In this document: piece after piece, positions 1-63,372 of the stretch
Position numbering within the stretch: the first letter of the stretch is position 1
How the letters are laid out: every line of letters starts with the position of its first letter
Source: Octopus vulgaris
Taxonomy: Eukaryota
DNA length: 64,000 bases
Direction of reading: 5' to 3'
NCBI GenBank assembly: GCA_951406725.2
Contig: OX597818.1
Span: 102,238,001 to 102,302,000 of the forward strand
Program-made: the position numbers and the translations under genes
Notes under the pieces: generated by a model
Databases searched by the model: none
Seen by the model: only the letters and a program-made list of their open reading frames with translations
What the model was told of the DNA's origin: nothing

Positions 1-498
1 ATTCCAACGGAAAAGATAAATAACCTTGACATGTATATCGACATTTTTACAAGTTAACAAGATTTTGTTTCTCACTCTCTCCGTCTTTCTCTATTTTTCT
101 TTTTATCTTTACGTATGCATATGTGCATGTGTGTGAAATATAGTACTGTATTGACCAGACAACACCAGACCAGACGCTCGGATGTTGTTACACACCGCTG
201 GTCAGAATGCGCTTCATCGCATTTTGTAGATCCTGAATAATGTCACCCCACTGGCTAGGTTAGCTGGTCAACGTTTCCATGAACGAAAGCCCGTCTGTTG
301 GACGGGTTACCCATTTACTGGTGACTGGACAGGAGAAACCTTAAATGAATGTTTCGCCCAAGCACACACATACAAACGTTCTACTCTCACAACCGCGGTC
401 TAGGTTTCGGAATTTGAATATCCTGAGATCTAGACCACATATACATTATTTACATAATTTACAATTCACGGATATTTGTCCTCATCTTGTCTATTGTT

Positions 499-544
499 AA
501 CACAATATTTCGGTTGATATATCTTTCAGCATTCATCAGGTGTC
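499..544 (-). ncRNA. Minimal type-I hammerhead ribozyme (stem II degenerate)
   Basis: Minus strand: GACAC CTGATGA A TGCTG..CAACC GAAA TA TT GTGTT. Stem I GACAC/GTGTT; palindromic stem III AATATT. Confidence 0.6.
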
Positions 545-591
545 TTGGGGAAATTTCGAACCCGGGTATTTTTAGATGGTGTTGTTGTTGT

Positions 592-631
<40 letters not shown>

Positions 632-693
632 GCAGCAACAACAACAATAATAACATCGAAAAATAATTTAATTCAGGTTCCAAATTTCCCTAA

Positions 694-738
694 GACACCT
701 GATGAAGGTTGGAGTGTATATCAAACGAAAATTGTGTT
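694..738 (+). ncRNA. Minimal type-I hammerhead ribozyme (degenerate)
   Basis: GACAC CTGATGA A GGTTGG..TCAAAC GAAA ATT GTGTT; 1-nt loss in stem III. Confidence 0.55.
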
Positions 739-1590
739 AACAACAAACAAGATTAGGACAAATATCAGTCAAATGTAAATATTGTAAATAAAGTAAATAG
801 CGTACATAATTCCTCATCTCTTAAATATAGAACGTTATAACACACGTTTTTATCTCTCCCACTCTTTCGCTGTCTCTTCCTCCCACTCTCTCTCTGGGTG
901 TATGTGTATGTGTGTATGTGCGTGTGTGTGCTTGCATGCGCATGTGTGTGTTTGCGTGTGGTTCAATACCAGTAGAGCCTCATTTATTCCTAGAGAATAT
1001 CTTCATTTAATGTTTTGTGCTATTTTCTTTGGCTATTTATTGTACATATTTTCGATAAGATTTGAAGGGAAAAGTATCCGCCATTGCTTATTAACGCTCA
1101 GTAGTGAACGAGAAGCCAGCTATCTTTAAGAATAAAGGACGTTTTTTAAGGTTACATGTTTGGCTTCGATGCTGCTAAGAATCATTATAATAACAGGAGC
1201 TTCAACAAGGAAAAATTAACGAGGTAAGCTTAAATAGATATTGTCAGTTAGAAATATACATTGAATAAAAGAGATTACACGTACTGTTCACATAAATTTT
1301 CAGAATAATTTCAATAAAGCAAAAATCAAAACAACACTAAAGTAGAAACGAACAACAAACTTAGCAAATTCCAAGTTACTTGGAACCTCACATATTATAA
1401 ATCTACTAGTGGCAGTTCAATAAAACACAGAGCTTCTATATTCGAAAGAAGGTGCGTATAAGTCACATAAGTTTTGGGAATTATGCACGAGTTTAACATT
1501 AAGTCCTGGTTCCATATGATTGACACAATTCTCGAGATATGTAATACAACATAAATTGAAGGTAGTATGTTACTAGTAAAAGAAAATTAT

Positions 1591-6222: not shown

Positions 6223-6262
6223 AAGAAATTACCGGTTTCGCGTGTAGATTTTCAAATTTCTT
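6223..6262 (-). ncRNA. Hammerhead-like motif with U3-A8 core, in the inverted pLTR
   Basis: Reverse complement of 7390-7429 with one stem II substitution. Confidence 0.6.
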
Positions 6263-6321: not shown

Positions 6322-7254
6322 AAAAGTAACCTTAAAATAGAAACAGACATTTTTTACAAAGCCACAGACGCCAAACAATACCTTCTTTTTAATTCATGCC
6401 ACCCAAGACACACTAAAACAAACATCCCCTTCAACCTTGCAAGAAGGATATGCACAATAGTGTCAGAACAAAATACCAGGAACTTTAGACTGCAAGAACT
6501 CAAAAACACCCTAATTGACAGACATTACCCAGCTCAACTCATAGAGGATGGGATCAGACGTGCAACAGAAATCAACATAGAAACTTTAAGAAAAGTTCAA
6601 CACAACAACACACCTTCCCCGAAAATACTACCTTACATATCTACATACAACCCCAGAAACAAAGAAGCCTTCACCATCATCACCCAGAATTTACCAATAC
6701 TTCATAAAAACCCAAAATTAAAGGAAATTCTAAACATACACCAAATCATTAAAAGCTACAAACAGCCTAAATCACTTAAAAAGATTCTCACAAAGGCAAA
6801 ATTGTCTTCTAAAATTACGGATGCAAAAGTAAAAAAATGTGGTAGATCGAACTGTGCAACATGTCCTAACCTATTGGAAGGATCAGAATTCTTCTTTAAA
6901 GAGGGACAGAAATTTAAGATCAAATCTAACTTTACTTGTGCCTCTGAAAACATAATTTATGTTATTAAATGCTCGGGCTGCCACCAAGACTACGTGAGTT
7001 CCACGGGACTATCACTCAGGCGCAGATGCACACTGCATCGACAACAGATTGCATTCCCAGAATATAGAATGATACCTTTTAGTGAGCACATTGAGAAATG
7101 CGCAAAGCAACTACTGCCACAATTTTTAATCTTCCCATTTTACCAATGTGCTTTCGGATCATCAACACAAATGAGACTGAACAAGGAAATATTCTTCATT
7201 GAAAAGTACAAACCCAGACTCAACCATCGGAACACACTGACACAGAGAAATTAA
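6322..7254 (+). CDS. PLE polyprotein C-terminal part: RT thumb, CxxxxCxxC knuckle and GIY-YIG endonuclease (5'-truncated, frame open)
   Basis: IETDIFYKATDAKQYLLFNSCHPRHTKTNIPFNLARRI; CGRSNCATC; FTCASENIIYVIKCSGCHQDYVSSTG..R...H; E..FI..Y.P.LN. Confidence 0.85.
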   Translation, partial: KSNLKIETDIFYKATDAKQYLLFNSCHPRHTKTNIPFNLARRICTIVSEQNTRNFRLQELKNTLIDRHYPAQLIEDGIRRATEINIETLRKVQHNNTPSPKILPYISTYNPRNKEAFTIITQNLPILHKNPKLKEILNIHQIIKSYKQPKSLKKILTKAKLSSKITDAKVKKCGRSNCATCPNLLEGSEFFFKEGQKFKIKSNFTCASENIIYVIKCSGCHQDYVSSTGLSLRRRCTLHRQQIAFPEYRMIPFSEHIEKCAKQLLPQFLIFPFYQCAFGSSTQMRLNKEIFFIEKYKPRLNHRNTLTQRN

Positions 7255-7389: not shown

Positions 7390-7429
7390 AAGAAATTTGA
7401 AAAGCTACACGCGAAACCGGTAATTTCTT
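7390..7429 (+). ncRNA. Minimal type-I hammerhead with UUGAAAA (U3-A8) core
   Basis: AAGAAAT TTGAAAA GC-TACAC-GC GAAA CCGG TA ATTTCTT. 7-bp stem I; palindromic stem III ACCGGT. Confidence 0.7.
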
Positions 7430-7564
7430 TAAAAATTTTAAAATTATGTCATTTTAAGGAAAGGAAAAAAAATTTTTCCAATATTCTCCAGACATTTTGA
7501 CACAAATATATATATTTTTTAACATTTAAGCCTTCTGTCGTTTTTTCACACTTTACTATTTTCT

Positions 7565-7617: not shown

Positions 7618-9265
<1,648 letters not shown>

Positions 9266-9636: not shown

Positions 9637-12550
9637 TTATTGCGAAGAACCTTGTCTAATATGTGGCACTTGGTGAAGAATGGAGTTTGATATAACTACT
9701 CTCATTTGCACCTCTTGCCGTGAGGTAGGTTCACCTGGGACTATCGACAGGAAGATGTCCAGCTTTGATTTAAAAACCGCTACATCTGCTTTGTGCAAGT
9801 TCCTCAGACTCTTTGGGAGAATATTAAAAAGCTGTGGGCCCTTGAAACCCAGGCTGTTGCAGAAGCTGGTCCTGAAGCGTGATGGCATTGCTGGGATCTT
9901 TGGCACTATACAGTGTCGTCCCGTTCTAGCATTGGTGTAGCTTACAATGACAAAATTTGGCACAATTTCTTCCAGGATCTTCCAGACATATATTACTCCA
10001 TACCTCTCCCGTCTTCTCTCCAGGGAGTAGAGTCTTAGCTGTTTCAAACTTTCCCAGTAGCTGAGCTGTTGCAAAGAGACGATCTTCTTTGTGAATCTTC
10101 TCTGGATTGCTTCAAGGTCCGCTGTTAATTTTACACTGGTGGGTGACCATAGCTGTGAGCAGTAATCCAGGCGGCTGAGGACGAATATCCATCATGGTTT
10201 CCTTATCTCTGGTTCTGAATGTTCTTAGGATCCACCCAGCCAGTCGTCTGCACTTTGTCGCCATCCTGGCAATGTGCACTTGGAAAGAGGTATCATCACT
10301 CATGTCGATACCCAGGTCCCTCACAGGCTCTGGGATTGAAATTCCCTGTGGACCGGTGTATCCTGTAAGTTTAATATTCAGTTTTGGATGCTGGTAGCGC
10401 AGGGCCTGGAATTTTTCAGCATTAAACTGCATATTATTATCCTCAGCCCATCTGTAGATTGAGTCCAACTCCTGCTGCAGGTGTGCAACATCGCTGGGGT
10501 TCTGTATTTTCTGCGAGACTTTCGTATCGTCTGCGTAGCTGGCCAGAGTGGCTATCCGGGCATTTGAGGGCATATCTGAGAGGGCCACTATAAAAAGCAG
10601 TGGTCCCAAGACAGTGCCCTGTGGAATACCCCTCACTATTTGTGTATTCATAGAGGTGGCTCCATTAACCACTACTGCCTGACTCCTATCTTTCAGGAAT
10701 GATCCACCTTGTCAAAAGCTTTGGCAAAATCATGGTAGATTACGTCCACATTTGATTTGTTGAGAAACTGCCTCAACACCAAGTCATAATGTTGTAAAAG
10801 CTGGGTCAGGCAGCTCCTACCTGGTCAAAACCAATGCTGGGTATCACTCAGCAAGTTATTTTCCTCAAGGAATGCGATTAGTTTCTTTCAGACTATCCGT
10901 TCCATGACTTTGCTGATGTGTGAAGTCAGAGAGATAGGCCTATAATTTTTGGCATCTACTCTACTTTCCCCTTTATGTATTGGGCATATTATTCCCTCCT
11001 TCAGCTTGCTTGGCAGTTTGCCATTCGCAAGAAAGCTCCTGAAGAGAATCTTGCGGGGTTTTGCCAGGGCATGCTTACTCGCTTTGAGGAGGATGGCTGG
11101 GAAACCATCTGGACCAGCAGCTGAGTTTGTGTCCACTTCATCTATGGCTAGTAGGACATCTTTTCGCTAATGTCAATACATTCTATTGTAACCGCCTCGC
11201 TGGTTATAGGTGAGGCGCAAAGAGGTCCACTGGTTCATTCACTTGTCTATGTTCCAACGGGGTGGTAAAGACACTTTTGAACTGGTCATTCAGCATCTCA
11301 CTTATCTTAGTTGGACTATCTGTGAGGGAGCCATCCTTTTGGAGGAGGGGTCCTATCTTGTAGTGCACTGAGGCTGTTTCTTTCCTGTAATGAAAGAAGG
11401 CCTTTGGGTTTGATTTAATATCTTTTATAACCCAGGCTTCTTTGTCTGCTTTCTCCTCCACATAGGATTGTTGCAACCTCTTTTCGATCTCCATCAGTGT
11501 TGTTTTTAGGCGGGACGTTTCGCTACTTATGGGATGTTGGTTGAGACGATTTGCAACCTTCGTCCGTCGTCTCATGAGGATCTTCCTCTCTCTTGGAATC
11601 TTGCTCCTATTTGTTTTGGCCTTGTGCTCTGAGACATATTTCTGGCATACGGCTTGCACAGAAGACATGAAAGATTCTAGTTTCATGTCAATGTCTGGTG
11701 TGGAGAGACATTCCGGCCAGTCCTCTCTGAGGATATCTTTTTGGATCGATTTCCAATCTGCTTTGTGGAAGTTCAGATTGGAGAGATTTCGGGGGCTTCC
11801 TTTAGGCTGTATGTCTCTGGTTACTTTTAGCCCAAACATAGACAGCTCTATTATGTTGTGATCCGAAACTGATGTCGGTGTCACTTTCACATCATGAACG
11901 ATGTCCATATTGTTCGTGAAGCAGAGATCCAGAATGTTATTCGCCCTAGTTGGCTTGAGTACAACTTGCTCCATGAATAAGGCATTGGTGAGGTTAAGCA
12001 GGGACTCCACCTGTACTTGCTTGCAATGATTCATTCCTGAGAGTATGTGACCTTCGGGCCTTTTGACGTTGGGGAAGTTGAAATCACCCATAAGAAATAT
12101 GGTCACGTGGTGTTCCAGATTCAAGAGGATTTCTTTAATTCTTGTGAGGCAAACTTCAAACTTGCCTGTGTGATTTGGGGCATGCGGTGGGCAATATGTA
12201 TTGCATATGACTATATTATGTTGTCTTATGTATACAATTATAGTGCCGTATACCGAATTTGAGTATGTCATTAAGACCTGGGGTGTGAGGTCATCTCAGA
12301 TATATACAGCAACTCCACCATGGTTCCTTTCCCTTCTGTCTGTTCGCAGTATGGCATAGTTTGGTATCTGTACTTCTGCGTCCTCTATATCAGGGTTGAG
12401 GTGAGTTTCTACAAGTGCTATGCATAGGACTTGATTGCATGCAGTAAGATCTCTCAGGAAAGAAATTTTGTTTCTATTTTGATGCAACAGGCCCCCAATA
12501 TTTAGTAAAAGTATTGGGGTGACGGCTGTGCAGGCGTTAGGGGGGGCCAT
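9637..12550 (-). pseudogene. LINE ORF2 (APE endonuclease + reverse transcriptase), disrupted
   Basis: NIGGL..LVETHL..RTDR..GGVAVYI; GDFNFP; PTRANNILDL; AAGPDG..NYRPISLTS; DFAKAFDKVDH followed by an internal deletion; GIPQGTVLGPLLF..YADDT; LSYWESLKQLRLYSLERRRERY. Several frameshifts and stops. Confidence 0.9.
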
Positions 12551-14284: not shown

Positions 14285-14699
14285 GGGATCGAGTGGGTTC
14301 TCATATATAGGTATGGAATTTTGTGTACGTTCGTAGTTTGTTATGCGAATATGTATTAAGCATACACCTATTGATACTTTTAAATATAATCTGTTGCTCG
14401 ATCTGTTATATATGTTATCATTAAACCCTGTTTTGCACTTTATTCCTTAAGGAAGGCTTTGTTTATACCAAAATTTCTGAAAACGGCCCCAGCGCCGCCT
14501 TGTGGGTGTGGACGCGATCCAGGTGCAAGCCGGTGCCTAAGTGAGTGATAGGGAGCTGTAAAGGAAAAGGACGCGTCGGGAGGAAGGGAGAGGCAGTTTT
14601 ATTTTTATTCCAACAGTACAATTATGAAAGCTTGTCTGATGTTCATCAACTTTTTGAAACTTTAGAGACACCAGTGGCTATTAAAAACAAAATTGCCAG

Positions 14700-15014
14700 A
14701 AGCCTACGGCCTGCTGGAACGCTCGGCTGCACCAGTCGTATGAATGCAGTAGTTGCTGGGGGAGGGGGTCAGGTGCCACAGAGCCACTGTTTCCCTTACA
14801 CTTGGTGATGTGACACCGAACTGAGTGAAGTTTGGTCCCACTTATACAGAATTATCAAAATTTCGTTGATATCAGCAAACACACATACACACTTACGTAG
14901 TTAGGTGTCACGTCACCAATTCTAAGGGGAACAGTGATCCTGTGACGCCTGGCCCCCGGCAACTACCACATCCATGTGACTGGTGCAACAAGCGTTCCAT
15001 CGAGCTGTAAGCTT
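14700..15014. repeat. Diverged ~125-bp inverted repeat (fold-back)
   Basis: 14700-14831 aligns with the reverse complement of 14891-15014 (GGAACGC, TGCACCAGTC, GTAGTTGC, CACTGTT, TTGGTGA.GTGACACC.AACT). Confidence 0.85.
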
Positions 15015-16031
15015 GTGAACACAGGCCCACTGACAGGGTGGAGTCTGCCTGGTGGTGTCTTAATATCCGTGAGTTTAAGGACCCGGAAACAAAATAAACT
15101 TAAACCCATTTAAATTCCCACTAGATCTCGTTTGGAAGATAATAAAAAATATATTGCGAAGTTGAACCCGGGATAATTTGTCTCGAAGAGGTGGATGCAA
15201 TGAAATAGACCCTTCTAAAGTTGAAGCGCTGAGATATTTATACTCGTACCTAAAACAATAAATAAGACTTCGCACAAATGGTAAAATATCAATGAAAATA
15301 TTTCCGTTAGCCTTCACGTGAGGAGAGGGAAGCTTATTGTCTCCAATATCAGAAAGTGGCGCAAAATAGGCCTCGGCAGGATTTTAAATGAACGCACATT
15401 CCCATGGGTGGTGAATACGCACTATGTAAATTTATGTGACGATCAGTTGGTAAAGAATGAGATAATATCCCTTAATTACTAGTCAAATAAAAATGTATGT
15501 ATGCTTAAATATATTCACACTAGCCATAACATGCTTCGATAAGCATACAATAGACACACACACACATATATATGTATATATATATATATATCTATATATA
15601 TATATATATACAGAGAAACGCATGGACACACACACGTACGCGCATATGGATTATATGTACTCAGTTAACTCTTTTCATAATTAGAAGAATAATACATCAT
15701 ATATACTTATATTCGTATTAGCATTTACGTATTTACTCCTCGTGTTGTGAAGAAAAACTTACTGTAATTCATTACAGTAATTAAAAACAAACATATTAGT
15801 TAATTAGGCCGCCCTTATGTTGGGGAACATTTCATTTTTACAACATCTTGTACTCATGAAAAGTAATGTAGAAATGATTGAATGAATAATTAAAAATGAA
15901 GCACCAGCAACAGAATAGCTCCTATTTTTTAAATCGATACTTGTGTCAGAAGTATCCTCAAAATTAGTGGCATCCTATTTCAATTATGGAATGATTTTTA
16001 AGCTGTTCATCTTACATTTTGTGTTTGTGTT

Positions 16032-17984: not shown

Positions 17985-18026
<42 letters not shown>

Positions 18027-18029
<3 letters not shown>

Positions 18030-18135
18030 GGTGTCCTGTACTCACATATATATATATTTATATGCATGTATATATACATGTAGATGTAGGTACGTACATA
18101 TATGTATGCATGTATGCATATGTTTTATTTATTAC

Positions 18136-18177
<42 letters not shown>

Positions 18178-18312
18178 TATATATATATACATATATATAT
18201 ATATAATGTAATAAATAAAATATATGCATACATACTTATATGTACGTACCTACATCTACATGTATATATACATGCATATATAAATATATATATGTGAGTA
18301 CAGGACACCACA
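18027..18312. repeat. Near-perfect ~110-bp inverted duplication around (TA)n
   Basis: 18027-18140 vs reverse complement of 18203-18312 (TGTGGTGTCCTGTACTCAC..GTAGATGTAGGTACGTAC..TTTATTTATTACATTAT). Confidence 0.9.
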
Positions 18313-18792
18313 CATAGACGTAGAACTCAACGAGAAACGTAAATATAAAAACAAGGGAACGGACTTTTTTTAACAACGAAAAAAACAGAACACAGGACAA
18401 ACAACACAAGGAACATTCCCCTTCATCAGCTGTCCCCGGTTCGACTCCATGTGTGTTTCGAAGGTAAGGACAGAAGACGCTCGCCGGACCGGTGCGAGGG
18501 AATTAAATAAAATTCCCTTGCAGAAGGATAAAAACAAGGAAAGAAAAAAATGTGACAAGAACAGGACGTAAAAGCAATACAAATAAAAATACGAATACGA
18601 AATAAAATACAAATATAAAAAATAGAGTACACATAAAGAATAAAAACAGGACAAAAGAACAAACATTGAGGGCCTTTTTTAGCCTAGACGAGGAAAAAAT
18701 TCAGAGCGCAGGAAATAAGTCGTCTTGACTTGTAGCAGGCTGGAGTGAAAAGGAAGTAGGGTCGACTCAGCTGTGAAGGAGATGTGGAGGAG

Positions 18793-23679: not shown

Positions 23680-23682
<3 letters not shown>

Positions 23683-23788
23683 ACTTATAAACAAGGGCAA
23701 AAGAAAACATTTCTAATGCCAAATATGCCGAAATGTATGGCATATTTAGCGTCAGAAATTTTTCTTTTTGCCCTTGTTTATAAGTTGT
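23680..23788. repeat. 50-bp-arm hairpin made of an element terminus, within (TA)n
   Basis: ACAACTTATAAACAAGGGCAAAAG..AAATATGCC / GGCATATTT..CTTTTTGCCCTTGTTTATAAGTTGT, 9-nt loop. Confidence 0.9.
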
Positions 23789-24552: not shown

Positions 24553-24966
24553 ACTTTACTCTCTCTTTTACTCCTTTACTGGTTTCAGTTATTTGACCGC
24601 GGCCATACTGGAGCACCACCTTTAGTCGAGCACATCGACCCCGAGACTTATTCTTTGTGAGTCTAGTACGTATTCAGTCGGTCTCTTTTGTCGAACCGCT
24701 AATTTACGGGGACGTAAACACACCAACATCGGTTGTCAAGCGATGTTTGGGTGGGGGTCAAACACAAATACAAGCACATATATATATACATATACATATA
24801 TGCGACGGGCTACTTTCAGTTTCCGTTTACCAAATACCCTCACAAGGTTTTGGCCGGCCCGAGGCTATAGTAGAAAACACTTGCCCAAAGTGCAACGCGG
24901 TGGGACTGAAACCCGGAACCATGTGGTTGGTAAGCAAGCTACTCACCACGAGCCTCTCTTGCGCCT
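24553..24966 (-). mobile_element. SINE family A, full length
   Basis: Reverse complement of the family A consensus from head (AGGCGCA) to (GTAAAAGA) tail. Confidence 0.85.
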
Positions 24967-25058: not shown

Positions 25059-25894
25059 TCTCACCCAGAACACACCAAGCTTTCCATCCCCTATTCCCAA
25101 TTCCTCCGTCTACGTAGGCTCTATAGTGACGACCATGACTTTGAGACTCAGTCTCAACGTATGGCTCACCACTTCACCCTACGTGGATACCCCCTCACCA
25201 CTCTCCACACCGCCCTTGCCAGAGCACGGTCCGTGGACCGTGTGTCTGCTCTCTCTCCCCGAACCCGCCCTGTAGTCTCCCGCCTCCCTTTTCCCCTCAC
25301 TTACCACCCCACGACCCTACGTCTCCAACGCACCATTCTTCGAGCTTTCCGTCATCTCCAGTCTGACCCATCCACTTCACACCTCTTCCCTAACCGACCC
25401 CTCCCCTCTTTCAAACGAGCCCACAACCTTCGAGACCTTTTGGTCCATAGCTCCTTCCCTGACACTACCTCCCAACCCGGCTCGTTCCCCTGCTCCCGCC
25501 CACGTTGCCGCACTTGCCCTTACCTCTCCAACACCACCCGCCTCACTAGCACCCACCATCGACCCTATCCTATCATCCACTCCTTCACCTGCACCTCCAG
25601 CAACATTATCTATTGCATCTCTTGCTCTCTCTGCAATTCCTTGTACATCGGACAAACGGGACGCCGCTTGGCTGACCGGTTCGCGGAACACCTTCGTGAC
25701 ATCCACCTTGCGAACGACACACCGGTCTCACGCCATTTCCGCTCCACCGGTCACTCCTTGCAACACCTATCTGTGTTCGGTTTGTCCTTACACAGAGGCC
25801 ATCCGGATTCCCGTTTGCGCCGTGAACAGGAATTAATCTTCTCTCTTCGCTCTTATACGCCATTTGGTCTCAACTCTCCCCCCTCCTCATCTAA
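25059..25894 (+). CDS. PLE RT thumb + Zn knuckle + GIY-YIG endonuclease (truncated; original stop probably frameshifted near 25894)
   Basis: SHPEHTKLSIPYSQFLRLRR..RGYP; LTYHP; CSRPRCRTC; FTCTSSNIIYCISCSLCNSLYIGQTGRRLADRFAEH; VSRHF..H; REQELIFSL..PFGLN. Confidence 0.85.
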
Positions 25895-26723
25895 CCCCCT
25901 CTCCCCCCTCCTCACCTATCCGTTCCCCCCGACCCCTACTTCTTCAGTCCTTCATCCTTTCACCCCTACTCCCCTTCCCTTCTTCCCTCTTTCTCCCTCC
26001 CTCTTCCCCTTCCCTCTGCTCCCTCACTCCCTCTCTCTCCTTCTCTCTCCCCCTCTCCCTCTTTCCTCCTTCATCCCCCTCCTCCCCCATCCTCTCCTCT
26101 TCCCCCCTCTCCTCCCCCTCTTCTTCCCCTCCCCTTCTCTCCCCCTCTTCCCCCTCCCCCTCTTATCCTCACTACACCACATGACTTTACACATCACATC
26201 ACATATGATGTGCCATACTAATACACACACCAACTAATACATACTAATACGTACTAATACATACTAGTACATACTAATACATACAACAACCCTATACATA
26301 CACACGTCCAGACCCCGTATACGCACTTATACTCTCTCATACACACATACACACACTTATACATACCAATACGTACTAATACATACTAATACATACTAAT
26401 ACATACACCAACCCCATACATACGCACGTCCAGACCAATCCTACGCACTAATACTCTCTCATACACACACACACACACACACACACCCTTATACATACTA
26501 ATACATACACCAACCCTATACATACACACATCCAGACCCCTCCTACGCACTATTAGCTGGTCCCTCAACCCTTTTATCAACCCTATTATCTCCCCTTATT
26601 TCGCTCTCGCGTCTCATGTTTGATCTTTGACCTCTGGCCGAAATCAGATCGCCATGTTGATTCGTTAGCTACTGCACGCATTTTTTTTCTCTCCTTCTTT
26701 CTGTGTTTTTCTCTCTCTGTGTA

Positions 26724-26761
26724 TCTTTCTGTTGAAGAGCGTAGGCTCGAAACGTTAAAGA
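26724..26761 (+). ncRNA. Minimal hammerhead with CUGUUGA (A6U) core
   Basis: TCTTT CTGTTGA A GAGC-GTAG-GCTC GAAA CG TT AAAGA. Perfect stems I and II; palindromic AACGTT stem III. Confidence 0.7.
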
Positions 26762-26859
26762 CTTGTTTTATTTATATTTCCTGAGCGCCATACTAATACA
26801 ATTGTTCGTTTGTTTTCCACCTGCCTTCGTCTTTTGTTTATTTTCATAAAGCTTCCCGT

Positions 26860-26891
<32 letters not shown>

Positions 26892-32534: not shown

Positions 32535-32730
32535 TGTTAGATCGCTAGCCACTACACTATCTTTATTTTCCCTCCTTGTTTCTTTTTGAGTTCTTATCTG
32601 TGGAAGAGCGTGAGCTCAAAACATTAAATACTTTTTCACTTCCCGAGGGTTATACTAATGTATCTGTTTGTTGTCTACACCACGTTTCTTCGTATGTTCT
32701 TTCTTGTTTTTCTTTCTGAATTCTCCCTAT
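32535..32730 (+). mobile_element. Short PLE terminus (same family as 26650-26840) with decayed HHR at 32593-32630
   Basis: GATCGCTAGCCACTACAC..CTGTGGA A GAGC-GTGA-GCTC AAAA CATT AAA..ATACTAAT; ends in (TA)n. Confidence 0.75.
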
Positions 32731-32781: not shown

Positions 32782-32940
32782 TGAGAAAGTTGGTGTGTGA
32801 AAGGACGTGGTTGGATATATAGAAAATAGTAAAGAGTGAGAAAACTACAGAAGGCTTGTTTTATAAGATTAAAGAATATATTCGAGTCATTATGTTACAA
32901 GAATGTTATAAAACTTTTTCATACAGTAACATAGGTTTTG

Positions 32941-32979
32941 AAGAAATTACCGGTTTCGTGTTAACTTTTCAAATTTCTC
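32941..32979 (-). ncRNA. Minimal hammerhead with U3-A8 core
   Basis: GAGAAAT TTGAAAA GT-TAAC-AC GAAA CCGG TA ATTTCTT. Confidence 0.7.
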
Positions 32980-33137: not shown

Positions 33138-34665
33138 TAGAGTGATTAAGTTTGGGCTTATATTTTTCAATGAAGAATGTTTACTCGTTTAATCTAATTT
33201 GTGTTGGTGTTCCAATAGCACATTCATAGAATGGAAAGATTAAAAATTGTGGTAGTAGTTGCTTTGCACATTTCTCAATATGATCACTAAAGGGCATCAT
33301 TCCGTATTCTGGGAATGTAATCTGTTGTCGATGCAGAGTGCATTTACGTCTGAGTGATAGTCCCGTGGACCCCACGTGGTTTTGGTGGCAGCCAGAGCAC
33401 CTTATGACATAAATTAGGTTTTCAGAAGCACAAGTAAAATTAGATCTGATCTTGAATTTTCGTCCGTCTTTGAAAAGGAATTCTGATCCTTCTAGAAGGT
33501 TTGGACATGTTGCGCAGTTTGGTCTACCACATTTTTTAACTTTTGCATCCGTAATTTCAGAAAACAATTTTGCCTTTGTGAGAATCTTTTTAAGTGATTT
33601 AGGTTGTTTGTAGCTTTTAATGATTTTATGTATGTTTAGAATTTCCTTTAATTTGGGGTCCTTATGGAGTATTCGCAAATTCTGGGTGATGATGGTGAAG
33701 GCTTCTTTGTTTCTGGGGTTGTATGTGGAGATGTAAGGCAGTATTTTCGGGGAAGGTGTGTTGTTGTTTTGAACCTTTCTCAAAGTTTCTATGTCGATTT
33801 CTGTTGCACGTCTGATCTCATCCTTTATGAGTTGAGCTGGGTAGTGTCTGTCAATTAGGGAGTTTTTGAGTTCTTGTAGTCTAAAGTTCCTGGTATTTTG
33901 TTCTGACACTATTGTGCATATTCTTCTTGCAAGGTTGAAAGGGATGTTTGTTTTAGTGTGTCTTGGGTGGCATGAATCAAAAAGTAGGTGTTGTTTAGCG
34001 TCTGTGGCTTTGTAAAAAAATGTCTGTTTCTATTTTAAGGTTAATTTTTTTAATTAGTCTATCTAAGAATGGAAGCTCCTTTTGGTTGTATTCCATTGTG
34101 AACTGTATATTTGGGTTGATGCTGTTCAATAGGTTTTTCAATTTTAGGAGTTTATCTGTTTTCATTCCAGAGTATAAAACAATCGTCCAGGAATCTTTTC
34201 CAATTCTCTTTTATGTATTGAGAGAGGGGGTTTCCAAAGGTCGATAAAGATTCCTGGTATACAATTATTTCTAGGTAGCCCATCGTTAGGTTCGCAATGA
34301 CTGGTGCTGCCCCTGTACCCATAGCAATTCCGGATTTTTGACGGTAAAATGTATTGTCAAACATGAAGTGGTTGTTATGTAGGATGAATTCAACCGATTT
34401 AGTAATGAATTCTTTACTGATCCTTTTTGGTATTTCTTCCGGAAATTGGTCCAGCCAGAACTGTATTGCCTCTAGTCCATAATTATGAGGTATACTGGTA
34501 TATAAATAAACTACATCAAATGGAACCATGATTGTTTCTTCCTTGACTTTTTTGGGTAGGTGGTTTAACATATCCAAGTCATCTCTGATATGACTATCGA
34601 TATGTTTAAGGAAGGGTTTCAGGAGGATGTCCATAAAAAGACTTAATCTGTGTGTTTCACAGGTG
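33138..34665 (-). pseudogene. PLE RT core + GIY-YIG, frameshifted
   Basis: FDVVYLYTSIP; YRQKSGIAMGTGAAPVIANLTMG; WKRFLDDCFILW; CGRPNCATC; LIYVIRCSGC..HVGSTG. Frameshifts near 34150 and 34020; stop at 33181. Confidence 0.9.
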
Positions 34666-34670
34666 TGTGC

Positions 34671-34721
<51 letters not shown>

Positions 34722-36060
34722 CACGTGCACACACAAAAAAAGGGATAGAGTAGACGATTATAGATAATAAGAATAAAATCACATTTAATGTAGCGTAAAA
34801 GTTGCTAAACTCACTTCTCAAATTGTTGATGGGTACCATGTTAAAACTATGGAATTATGATTCATAACCGATATGAACTTTATTACAGTCAAGTAGCGGG
34901 GTTTTACGTACAGATTCCGAATTACCCGTCACGCAGTGCAGTGACAGACGTTTTGAAGGCATTTTCTATTACTTAAATATTTTCCTTCGTACCCTGTCTT
35001 TTAGGCAGGGATCTTACAATCTTGGTCTTGAGTTATACAAGGAATGATTAGCAGTGTTTTGCAGCATAAATCCAGGTAGTATGGACCTTTATACTTTAGA
35101 ATGACTGAGATGTTAACATGTTTTCGATCTGTTAACATCTCTGAAAACCGCTGCTCAAGTACCTTTTGCACATTTTGGTACCGGATATAGCGGAAATATC
35201 AGAGGGATATCCACAAAATTTGTTTGTGCAATGCAGATGATTTGAAAATTGTATTCCAATTGTCCACAAAATTCAAAAGAACGTTTGTTAAATTAGCTAT
35301 TTATATATACAACTCAGTATGATATGCGTTAAACACTTATAAAATATAATCGTAACATGCAAGCGGTTATATAACCGATAGTTTATGGACGATAATCTTG
35401 CAGGTCGCCAAGACACACGCATGATGCAGAAGCATAAACTAAATATATCCCATGAATATAATTGATTACATCGTGAAGTCACATATTTTTTCAATTAAGC
35501 TGCGTCATGTAAAGTTAAATCAAAAGATAATTAGGGCAAATAACCAATATAATTAATAATATTTGTCATGTCGATGGGCGTGTTATTAAATATGCAAATA
35601 AAAACTAGATTATTTTAGAAAATTTGAAATGAAGTTTTAATTTAACAAACCTAAATACATTCCTCTATATAGCCATTGATATATATACTTATTTAAGAGT
35701 GTACATTAATTCATTTATACGTGTGTGTATAATTGCCCAGATGAGTAACGTATGTGCAAACATATTATACAAAAAGCACAATTTAATTATTGTTTGGACG
35801 AATTTGATTAAATTAATAATCAATGCAAGTTTAAACGTAATTCAAGTGTTGTAATATCTTTAACAGAATGTGTATGTATAGGCAAAGCCGTATTCAATGT
35901 TCGAAATGGAATAAGCAATAAGCGTATTTCACCATCGTCGGCACTATTCAACATATAAATTTAAAATTTTCCTTACACACACACGCTCACACAGACAAAC
36001 ACAGATACACACTGACACAAACGCACACATATACACTGGCGCATACACACAATCACACAC

Positions 36061-41788: not shown

Positions 41789-42010
41789 TTGTATTTAGGA
41801 ATGGTCATTTTGCCAGCTTAGCCAATAAAAACACACGCACTATATATTTGGTGTTACTTTGCTTCAGCGTTATTTATTTCTTACATTAATCTTAATCTTA
41901 TTTCGGCCAGTTATTTCGTCACACATCAGTGACCTCATCAGTAACACCAAATTTTATAGTGCGTGTGTTTTTATTGGCTAAACTGGCAAAATGACCATTC
42001 CTAAATACAA
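41789..42010. repeat. 70-bp inverted repeat enclosing a hammerhead-like core
   Basis: 41789-41858 vs 41940-42010 with about 2 mismatches; minus-strand spacer starts CTGATGA G GTCAC-TGATGT-GTGAC GAAA. Confidence 0.85.
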
Positions 42011-43976: not shown

Positions 43977-44500
43977 CGTGTATATATACGTATACACACA
44001 CACACACGTATATATTTACGTAAAATATGTCCATGTGTGTTTGTGTGTATGCGAGCGCGCGCGAGTTTTCGTGGGTGTGTGTATTAGTGTGGATTCAATA
44101 AATTTTCATTCGAACTTTTATTTTTATGCAGATGCTGCATTAGCAGGAATCCGCATTTTAATCAGCATATTCGAATACATTTACGAATCTGTATTCTTAA
44201 GCGCACATTTATGTAGTCTGCTGTTCGGAAGCATGTTCTCCTAGGTTGACGTACGAATAACGAAACTGATATATTTGCTGTACTTTCTGTTAAACCATCC
44301 ATAGGGTTTCTTATCCTTATCAACGATTGTTAAATATTCTGTGTATAATTGCGCAACTACTTTGATTCGTTATGTCTTAGAATGCCAGGGTCAAGTAATT
44401 GATAATGCCAATAATCCAGGAGCGAGCGTCTCACACTCTTGAATTGTATAGGTATCAAACTTTTGCTGGAATGTTGACTTGTGCATATATACATACATAT

Positions 44501-45367
44501 GGGCCCTTATTGTTCTTAGTCTTCATAAATGACTTGCCCGACGACCTCACGCAACACACCCTTCTATTTGCCGACGATATCAAACTGGTCGCTCCTCGCG
44601 GTGATATAGAGGATCTTCGTCGATGCCTCCACCAAATTTGGAAGTGGTCTAACGAATGGGACCTGTGTCTGAACGTGTCAAAGTGCTGTCATCTGCCTGT
44701 TGGCTCTCCTCCTGCAACTCAACTTGATTTCGAGCCGGGTCGTCTGCTGCTGGAGAGGACCGATCAGGTAAAGGACCTGCGTATCTTGGTGGATTCCTCC
44801 TTTTCGCCTTCGGCCCAGTGCGTCCATGCTGCCAACAAAGCACGCGGAATTCTGTTCTTGATTTGACGGTCATTCGGAATGATCACAGCAGCCATATTCC
44901 TACCATTCTATGTCACGCTGGTGAGACCCATATTGGAGTACGGGATTCAAGCCTCTTCTCCTTATCTCCTCAAAGACATACATCATCTCGAAAGAGTCCA
45001 GAAGCTGGCTACCCGCATGGTTCATGGTCTCAAAAATTTGTCCTATGAAGAAAGGCTGAGGACGCTCGACCTTTGTTCTCTTGAAAAACGCCGCCGCCGT
45101 GGTGATCTCATTCTCGCCCACAACAGCATAAGCGGAAAGTGTAACCTCTCGAAAGAGCTGTTCTTCACTCCTGCTCCAGAGCGTCGGCTGCGGCGTCATT
45201 CCGAAAAGCTCTACCTGCGACGATTTCATCTCAATCGAAGGAGAGGAGCTTTCTCCGTCCGGGTTGCGGATCCGTGGAACAAGCTGCCAGACGAGATGGT
45301 GAAGATGCCGACGACCGCTTTGTTCAAAGCCTCCCTTGACTTCAAGTGGCCTGAACTCTTTACATGA
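44501..45367 (+). pseudogene. CR1 RT C-terminal half with one in-frame TGA (probable CGA>TGA) at 44864
   Basis: GPLLFLVFINDLP..LFADDIKL; LVRPILEY; LERVQKLATRMV.GL.NLSYEERL..L.SLEKRRRRGDLI; WNKLP..FKASLD. Confidence 0.9.
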
Positions 45368-47299: not shown

Positions 47300-47698
47300 C
47301 ATACATATTATATACATACCCATCCCCACATTTTCCCACCTACACATACATACACACACACGTCCAGACCAACCAGCCCTCTTCCACACGCACACACATA
47401 ATCTCTTATACATACGTACCTTCGTGTTGGGGGTCATCTTTATTTTGTTATCTCCCCCTGCTTCTTCCCTCTCGTGTGTGACCCTTCTGGCTTGCAGTCG
47501 CCATGCTAGATCGTTAGGCACTACACACATTTTTTTCTCTCCTCGTTTATCTCCTGGTTTTGTCAGTGTTCCTTTCTGTAGAAGAGAGTAGACTCTAAAC
47601 GTAAAAGACTTTTTCTCTTCCTGAGCGTTATACTAATACACCTGTTTGCTTTGTACACCACCTGTCTCCTTCGTCTTTTGTTTCTTTTCGTAAACTCT

Positions 47699-47702
<4 letters not shown>
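47300..47702 (+). mobile_element. PLE 3' UTR/terminus remnant (family of 25059-26840) with decayed HHR at 47572-47607
   Basis: CACGTCCAGACC, GCCATGCTAGATCGTTAG, CTTT CTGTAGA A GAGA-GTAG-ACTC TAAA CG TA AAAG, CTGAGCG.TATACTAATACA; ends in (TA)n. Confidence 0.75.
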
Positions 47703-63164: not shown

Positions 63165-63372
63165 GTTGACTCTTGGTGATCCATTTTTCTTTCTTCTTCC
63201 TTTTTTTTCGACTTTCCTATATTTCACGTTTCAGAAGAAGAGCTATGCTCGAAACCTAAAACAGCCACTGTTGTTTTTCTTCTCGGAGCATCTAATTAAT
63301 ACTTTACATGTGTTACTTCCTCGCGTTGTTGTTTTTTCCTTGTTTTTTTCTTCGCTTTTTGAATTAATTATA
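63165..63372 (+). mobile_element. Short PLE terminus with HHR-like motif at 63228-63262
   Basis: GTTT CAGAAGA A GAGC-TAT-GCTC GAAA CC TA AAAC; downstream GAGC..CTAATTAATAC resembles the 7.8 and 26.8 kb termini. Confidence 0.6.

What the first reader, a model, noticed from the sequence alone, without database searches (positions are those of the whole stretch)
26724..26761. HHR family with invariant U6 and free position 7 (CUGU-N-GA)
Seen: three homologous termini read CUGUUGA (26729), CUGUGGA (32598) and CUGUAGA (47576). Position 7 varies, as expected for an HHR, but the normally conserved A6 is U in all three. The 26.7-kb copy has perfect stems I and II and a palindromic AACGUU stem III. Inference: a family-fixed non-canonical core, either active as a dimer or repurposed as an RT-recognition structure.
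Basis: partly seen in the sequence, partly recalled or inferred. Interest (0 to 1): 0.7.

Follow-up and report, generated by a model that had tools for sequence, protein, structure and literature searches.

The report
Penelope hammerhead with fixed U6 core
The motif is the small hammerhead RNA near the end of an abundant Penelope-like jumping gene; its family carries U at a core position that is almost always A, which likely makes it a slow or self-locked cutter, though cutting is untested.

Summary
Observation largely confirmed. 26724-26761 is a minimal type I hammerhead (min-HHR) about 100 nt inside the 3' end of a 5'-truncated Penelope-like element (PLE; GIY-YIG fragment 25059-25868). It matches the published metazoan PLE consensus in every respect except A6, which is U. 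Public contigs laid on the 47.6-kb copy show no A at position 6 at 1% or more in three well-covered runs, but G (6-8%) and C (2-12.5%) at position 7, and they restore G12 and stem II. Both layings are reference-biased, so these are not family frequencies. The 32.6- and 47.6-kb copies have lost G12 and are decayed. Related hammerheads elsewhere keep A6 (114 of 119), as do two more distant window copies, so U6 is likely derived. Best reading (0.5): an attenuated, dimer- or protein-assisted ribozyme; U6 is predicted to pair the core shut in the monomer. A dead or purely structural motif is not excluded. I found no natural A6U hammerhead in the papers I could search; one key paper was unavailable. 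This scan noted the same variant before, in this genome and others.

The parts
26724..26728 (+). stem I, 5' strand (UCUUU)
   Evidence: sequence; descriptor and fold
26729..26735 (+). core box C3-A9, CUGUUGA; U6 = 26732, N7 = 26733
   Evidence: no other letter listed at 2% or more (reference-biased)
26736..26736 (+). extra A between 9 and 10.1, typical of PLE min-HHRs
   Evidence: sequence; PMC4209133 consensus CUGANGAH
26737..26748 (+). stem II GAGC/GCUC with GUAG loop
   Evidence: majority letters restore it on the 47.6-kb copy
26749..26756 (+). G12-A15.1, loopless palindrome ACGU (stem III only in a dimer), U17; predicted cut 26756^26757
   Evidence: sequence; HHR numbering as in PMC4209133; cut site inferred
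26757..26761 (+). stem I, 3' strand (AAAGA)
   Evidence: stem I covaries across related families
26560..26859 (+). 3' terminal repeat (pLTR) of the element, ending at a (TA)n run that starts at 26860
25059..25868 (+). 5'-truncated PLE ORF: end of RT region, CX4CxxC linker, GIY-YIG endonuclease with CCHH residues
   Evidence: tblastn up to 49% identity to full-length RT-EN proteins, E 2.6e-75; Pfam GIY-YIG E 0.003, below cut-off; 139 homologues
25869..26559 (+). low-complexity 3' UTR (CT-rich, then CA-rich 122-bp repeats), with no (TA)5 or longer run between ORF and pLTR
   Evidence: linkage to the ORF is inferred from contiguity
32535..32727 (+). short 5'-truncated copy between (TA)n runs; core CUGUGGA at 32598, G12 and G16.2 lost
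47350..47701 (+). 5'-truncated copy with part of the CA-rich UTR; core CUGUAGA at 47576, G12 lost, stem II damaged
7731..7885 (-). distant homologue with A6 kept (CCGACGA at 7854-7848)
   Evidence: nhmmer E 1.5e-6
63227..63301 (+). distant decayed homologue with A6 kept (CAGAAGA at 63232)
   Evidence: nhmmer E 8.6e-4

Best explanation
The site is the minimal type I hammerhead in the terminal repeat of a Penelope-like retroelement family whose core carries U6 in place of A6, and it likely works as an attenuated ribozyme that would cut rarely and only when paired with a second copy or helped by the element's protein. Shown: the anatomy, the PLE context, U6 throughout the contigs that lay on the family, variation at N7 and N17, and A6 in relatives. 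Predicted: U6 weakens the CUGA uridine turn and lets U4-G5-U6 pair with A15.1-C15.2-G16.2, closing the monomer; a partner's ACGU palindrome would compete for those bases. Inferred: slow cutting is tolerated or useful because genomic copies are reverse-transcribed from about 100 nt downstream through an uncut motif, while occasional cutting in a tandem transcript would release the element RNA from upstream sequence.
For: Fit to the min-HHR consensus except A6. On the 47.6-kb copy, N7 shows G 8.4/7.0/5.9% and C 4.1/12.5/2.2% in runs X3/X13/X11, while the tallies leave no T>A or T>G row for position 6; G12 is read in 88.0/99.6/95.2% and both stem II positions in 91-99%. In X13 the listed rows account for every tally, and no row falls on positions 3-6, 8, 9, 13, 14, 15.1 or 16.1. 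Variation concentrated at N7 and N17 among U6 contigs is the pattern expected of a hammerhead still under constraint after U6 arose (inference). Stem I covaries across 18 related motifs: 22 cells with changes on both sides against 10.8 in shuffles. A natural A6C core cleaves at below 0.1 per min (PMC3088659). The Anolis PLE hammerhead cuts only with protein (PMC11167929). P(G5-C15.2) is 0.47-0.98 with U6 and 0.00-0.06 with A6.
Against: No cleavage data. In a full pairwise mutagenesis of a type III hammerhead, all changes in the CUGA region except the 3-8 swap had low activity and no rescue (PMC9901934). The double-hammerhead fold (-14.9 kcal/mol) is weaker than two monomers (2 x -10.8) and than the dimer minimum (-28.0). 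Loop II, which should be free, also shows no listed variant, and only about 10 of the 67 downstream positions carry a listed minor variant in X3, so an invariant 11-base core is not significant on its own (rough p about 0.2, my estimate by hand). Both layings are reference-biased: (U7, U17 reference) lists no other letter at 26729-26761, while (A7, A17 reference) reads A as the majority; 13 rows were hidden. In Anolis, HHR mutants did not affect insertion in vitro and no reads ended at the cut site; Naiad PLEs spread without canonical HHRs (PMC8557442).
Confidence: 0.5

Rival explanations
1. A6U killed the ribozyme in a founder copy and the lineage spread regardless; the rest of the motif is conserved only because few master copies and little time separate the subfamilies.
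For: CUGA mutants are near-inactive. HHR cutting was not needed for insertion in vitro. Core invariance is weak statistically and loop II is also invariant. All window copies span the predicted cut site.
Against: N7 is the one position of the 7-base box that shows three letters and a fourth, and N17 also varies. Window copies are only 63-71% identical to each other, so the family is not very young. Earlier unchecked notes report U6 families in other genomes.
Confidence: 0.25
2. The motif no longer cuts but is kept as a fold recognised by the element's RT-endonuclease protein or needed for promoter or reverse-transcription initiation.
For: The Anolis PLE protein needs the first 172 nt of the ORF, a region that holds most of the HHR, and starts reverse transcription internally (PMC11167929). 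All three copies end 98-103 nt after the motif. U6 is predicted to stabilise a rod-like monomer.
Against: A binding role does not by itself explain retention of G5, G8, G12 and the NUH triplet with freedom at N7 and N17. The rod is strongest only with U7, yet A7, G7 and C7 occur. No binding test was possible.
Confidence: 0.17
3. U6 is a fully tolerated change in the double-hammerhead context and the dimer cuts as well as an A6 min-HHR.
For: Another uridine-turn change, C4, is common in related motifs (41 of 119 matches), so min-HHR cores may be more tolerant than canonical ones.
Against: A6 is kept in 114 of 119 related motifs. Published position-6 changes are slow. No compensating change is seen in the core.
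Confidence: 0.08

Closest known systems
Minimal type I hammerheads (min-HHR) in pLTRs of metazoan Penelope-like elements (Cervera and De la Pena 2014, PMC4209133), closest row: Acropora digitifera Neptune (Table S1, Fig. S3)
   Same: U-rich leader, short stem I, extra base after A9, G10.1-C11.1, 4-bp stem II ending GCUC, loopless palindrome at 15.2-16.2, NUH triplet, position 3' of a GIY-YIG ORF, many truncated solo copies.
   Different: A6 is U. All 56 rows of their Fig. S3 carry A6, but their descriptor required the core. The only metazoan core variant named in the parts I read is U3-A8.
Natural A6C hammerhead of phage Bcep176 (Perreault et al. 2011, PMC3088659)
   Same: A natural change at position 6, with low but detectable cleavage.
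   Different: Single phage example, C rather than U, not a high-copy retroelement family.
PAc Poseidon hammerhead of Anolis carolinensis (Frangieh et al. 2024, PMC11167929)
   Same: pLTR hammerhead upstream of the point where genomic copies end; uncut RNA is the template.
   Different: Different PLE clade; cleavage was shown, with protein; no U6 mentioned in the passages read.
Neptune/Nematis-type EN+ PLEs (Craig et al. 2021, PMC8557442)
   Same: C-terminal GIY-YIG with CX2-5CxxC linker and CCHH residues; (TA)n targets; pLTR with HHR.
   Different: Only a 270-residue fragment is present; Neptune versus Nematis was not resolved.

Membership tests
PLE min-HHR (type I) | C3, U4, G5, G8, A9 and GAAA core letters | tested here: met
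   majority letters
PLE min-HHR (type I) | A6 (CUGANGAH consensus) | tested here: not met
   U in 3 of 3 family copies; no A at 1% or more, none at 2% or more
PLE min-HHR (type I) | extra base between 9 and 10.1; G10.1-C11.1 pair | tested here: met
   A26736; G26737-C26748
PLE min-HHR (type I) | stems I and II | tested here: met
   stem I covariation across relatives; stem II was fixed by my search pattern, so its covariation is untested
PLE min-HHR (type I) | palindromic, loopless stem III and NUH triplet | tested here: met
   ACGU; GUU at 26754-56, GUA in the 47.6-kb copy
PLE min-HHR (type I) | location in a PLE terminal repeat | tested here: met
   related motifs also lie near PLE ORF pieces in 14 of 118 loci with 300-base flanks
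Hammerhead ribozyme (functional) | site-specific self-cleavage after N17 | not testable with these tools
   only contigs were available for the runs laid; they cannot show RNA ends
Rfam hammerhead families | score at or above gathering threshold | tested here: not met
   0 matches to any Rfam family in the window
EN+ PLE, Neptune/Nematis type | C-terminal GIY-YIG with CCHH residues and CX2-5CxxC linker | tested here: met
   CSRPRCRTC linker, CISCSLC before YIG, two downstream His
EN+ PLE, Neptune/Nematis type | RT-based placement in the Neptune clade | tested here: inconclusive
   RT core missing; endonuclease tree (46 rows, no named clade references) has no starred set that holds the window protein
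Non-LTR retrozyme | tandem non-coding HHR repeats | tested here: not met
   copies are solitary and one follows a PLE ORF

The most novel reading that the evidence does not exclude
A6U is a selected switch: it pairs the core shut in single transcripts so that reverse transcription can run through the motif, and dimer formation or the element's own protein opens it to cut. It would be a natural conformationally gated hammerhead core, possibly reached more than once in PLEs of distant animals.
Probability: 0.15. Interest if true: 0.65.

Novelty: new variant of a known kind. Interest (0 to 1): 0.4.

Why it matters
What hammerheads do for Penelope-like elements is an open question: they are widely conserved, yet cutting was dispensable in the one in vitro transposition test. 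A successful high-copy family with a changed 'invariant' core base, with A6 sister families in the same genome, is a natural experiment. If U6 cuts, the accepted core is too narrow and descriptor searches that demand CUGANGA miss whole families. If it does not, cutting is dispensable for PLE amplification in vivo.

Tried and rejected
No whole genome is held, so no direct count of genomic copies was possible. Rfam: 0 matches. My first reading, that U7 is also fixed and position-7 variation is only decay, was dropped after one search showed G7 and C7 in many contigs and revealed reference bias. Runs X10 (61 contigs laid, one across the motif) and X8 (1 contig) add almost nothing. No RNA holder on record was listed; X11 is only guessed to be RNA. 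An alternative register with U3 (UUGAAGA) gives no stem II and was rejected. Viral contigs: 0 matches for the family pattern, no endonuclease relative, and 0 of the 120 matches of a looser U6 pattern had both stems. Prokaryote genomes gave 2 matches: L119 has no PLE hit, and L120 is a PLE piece, probably a contaminant. Of 3 U6 matches, L050 and L054 are GC-rich and lack stem I (chance); L116 has a 6-bp stem I but look-alike copies L037 and L049 carry A6. The endonuclease tree did not tie the window protein to the shark protein P0052; cluster look-up gave no further names. Literature searches listed no natural A6U hammerhead: of the two A6U hits, the one I opened concerns twister and the other was seen only as a listing; one search hits were seen only as a listing. 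Lunse et al. 2017 (PMC5785218), on small PLE hammerhead variants, is not held and may describe such cores. The Octopus vulgaris repeat library of PMC13282606 is on Zenodo and could not be read; its one supplement was not opened.

Full report
Observation. The three motifs are at the stated places and lie in one repeat family; pairwise identity over about 165 aligned bases is 63-71%. The 26.7-kb copy parses as a type I minimal hammerhead: stem I 26724-28/26757-61, core CUGUUGA 26729-35, an extra A, stem II GAGC/GCUC with a GUAG loop, GAAA, a loopless ACGU palindrome, and U17 at 26756. A descriptor allowing one change at positions 4/6 found 3 sites in the window and 0 in 100 shuffles. Rfam found nothing. 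The 32.6-kb copy has lost G12 and G16.2; the 47.6-kb copy has lost G12 and has a damaged stem II. Both are decayed.

Context. The window is animal DNA rich in (TA)n. An earlier unchecked note on the same genome calls it an octopus; I did not test that. Upstream of the 26.7-kb motif, on the same strand, 25059-25868 encodes the end of a PLE protein: up to 49% identity to full-length RT-endonuclease proteins, a CX4CxxC linker, and a GIY-YIG domain with CCHH residues (Pfam GIY-YIG E 0.003, below cut-off). No (TA)5 run separates ORF and repeat, and the 47.6-kb copy shares part of the CA-rich spacer, so I infer one element. All three copies end 98-103 nt after the predicted cut site, at (TA)n. The features fit the Neptune/Nematis type as described in PMC8557442 (passages); a tree built from 46 rows (43 of the 120 proteins held plus 3 window fragments) did not place the fragment in a well-supported set.

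Is U6 family-wide? No genome was held. One search listed 24 runs, 20 of which hold at least half of the words of the 26.7-kb stretch, under nine coded organism labels; I laid 8 of them. On the 26.7-kb copy 23327, 8186, 61 and 53 contigs were laid for X1, X5, X10 and X12; no other letter at 2% or more is listed at 26729-26761, and X10 barely covers the motif. On the 47.6-kb copy 5692, 1, 48 and 751 contigs were laid for X3 (possibly the source sample), X8, X13 and X11. Majority letters restore G12 (88.0, 99.6, 95.2% in X3, X13, X11) and both stem II positions (91-99%). Position 7 shows G (8.4, 7.0, 5.9%) and C (4.1, 12.5, 2.2%); the A>G and A>C tallies are fully accounted for by listed rows, so no other A in the core varies that way. 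Thirteen rows were hidden, but the T>A and T>G tallies are fully accounted for elsewhere, so A6 or G6 is under 1%; a hidden T>C row cannot be excluded for X3 and X11. The other listed variation inside the motif is at CpG sites and N17. The two layings disagree on the commonest letter at 7 and 17, each favouring its reference, so the shares are not family frequencies; the comparison of neighbouring positions 6 and 7 within one laying is the usable result. Contigs also drop rare variants.

Is U6 derived? A scan of metagenome contigs for the same stem II and core, with positions 4, 6 and 7 open, returned 119 matches in 118 loci from 36 of 64 parts of the collection: A6 114, U6 3, C6 2; position 7 C 84, G 17, U 11, A 7; C4 41. 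These are copies (94 distinct contexts, a few families dominate), not independent events. Fourteen of the 118 loci hold PLE protein pieces within 300 bases. The commonest family is nearly identical to the Acropora digitifera Neptune row of PMC4209133 (supplement). Two more distant homologues in the window also keep A6. Over 18 chosen motifs stem I covaries (22 cells changed on both sides against 10.8; 81.5% paired against at most 39% when slid); stem II was fixed by the pattern. So A6 is likely ancestral and U6 a change in this family.

Mechanism. Known: min-HHRs lack stem III as monomers and cut weakly as dimers (PMC4209133, main text parts 1-2 of 4); the Anolis PLE motif cuts only with protein and cutting was not needed for insertion (PMC11167929, passages and first part of the main text); A6C is slow but active (PMC3088659, one section); CUGA-region mutants of a type III hammerhead are low and not rescued (PMC9901934, passages). 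Predicted here: with U6 the monomer closes U4-G5-U6 onto A15.1-C15.2-G16.2 (pair probability 0.98, 0.59, 0.47, 0.81 for U, A, C, G at position 7; 0.00-0.06 with A6). The double hammerhead is not the predicted minimum, so activity would need tertiary contacts, Mg2+ or protein. Inferred: an attenuated ribozyme (0.5), because variation among U6 contigs falls on N7 and N17, the positions a working hammerhead leaves free. That evidence is modest: loop II is also quiet, and the invariant core alone is not significant. Rivals: dead motif (0.25), structural role (0.17), fully active dimer (0.08).

Comparison and novelty. It works like a PLE min-HHR and meets every tested feature of that group except A6; cleavage is untested. 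The dimer logic, extra A and palindrome are published. I found no natural A6U hammerhead in nine searches, but Lunse et al. 2017 was seen only as a title in a reference list and published descriptors required A6. Other papers seen: PMC6765202, PMC6155905, PMC11662667 and PMC13282606 as passages; bioRxiv 10.64898/2026.07.22.740005 part 1 of 5. Earlier unchecked notes of this scan report U6 PLE hammerheads in this genome and others; they are not independent evidence. Verdict: new variant of a known kind, interest 0.4.

Noticed in passing
window 7390-7430 (+), 32940-32979 (-), inverted copy near 6225-6262 (-): A second PLE family (ORF pieces 6322-7254 and 33181-34757) carries a min-HHR with the known U3-A8 core (UUGAAAA), A6 kept, 7-bp stem I, ACCGGU palindrome, and a 2-bp stem II that differs by a compensatory pair between the two copies. 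The 6-7.5-kb copy is flanked by 227-nt inverted repeats.
   Followed up: partly
metagenome loci such as L001, L009, L031, L044; window 7854-7848 (-): C4 (CCGANGA) occurs in 41 of 119 related motifs, mostly one large family, and in one window homologue: a second family-level change in the uridine turn.
   Followed up: partly
L116:293-336 (-): A single U6 min-HHR with a 6-bp stem I in an unrelated family whose look-alike copies carry A6.
   Followed up: partly
window 24563-24958 (-) and copies at 1590, 13718, 19778, 29387, 51162, 58472, 61781: A dispersed repeat of about 400 nt, probably a SINE (label from recall, not tested); one copy abuts the 5' end of the PLE fragment.
   Followed up: no
window 9640-12295 (-) and 44399-45367 (+): LINE-type endonuclease and reverse-transcriptase fragments.
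   Followed up: no
window 439-798, 14697-15017, 18023-18316, 23680-23788, 41789-42010: Several imperfect palindromes of 110-360 nt.
   Followed up: no
L120 (genome contigs): A PLE fragment with a CCGACGA hammerhead inside a bacterial MAG contig, probably eukaryotic contamination.
   Followed up: partly
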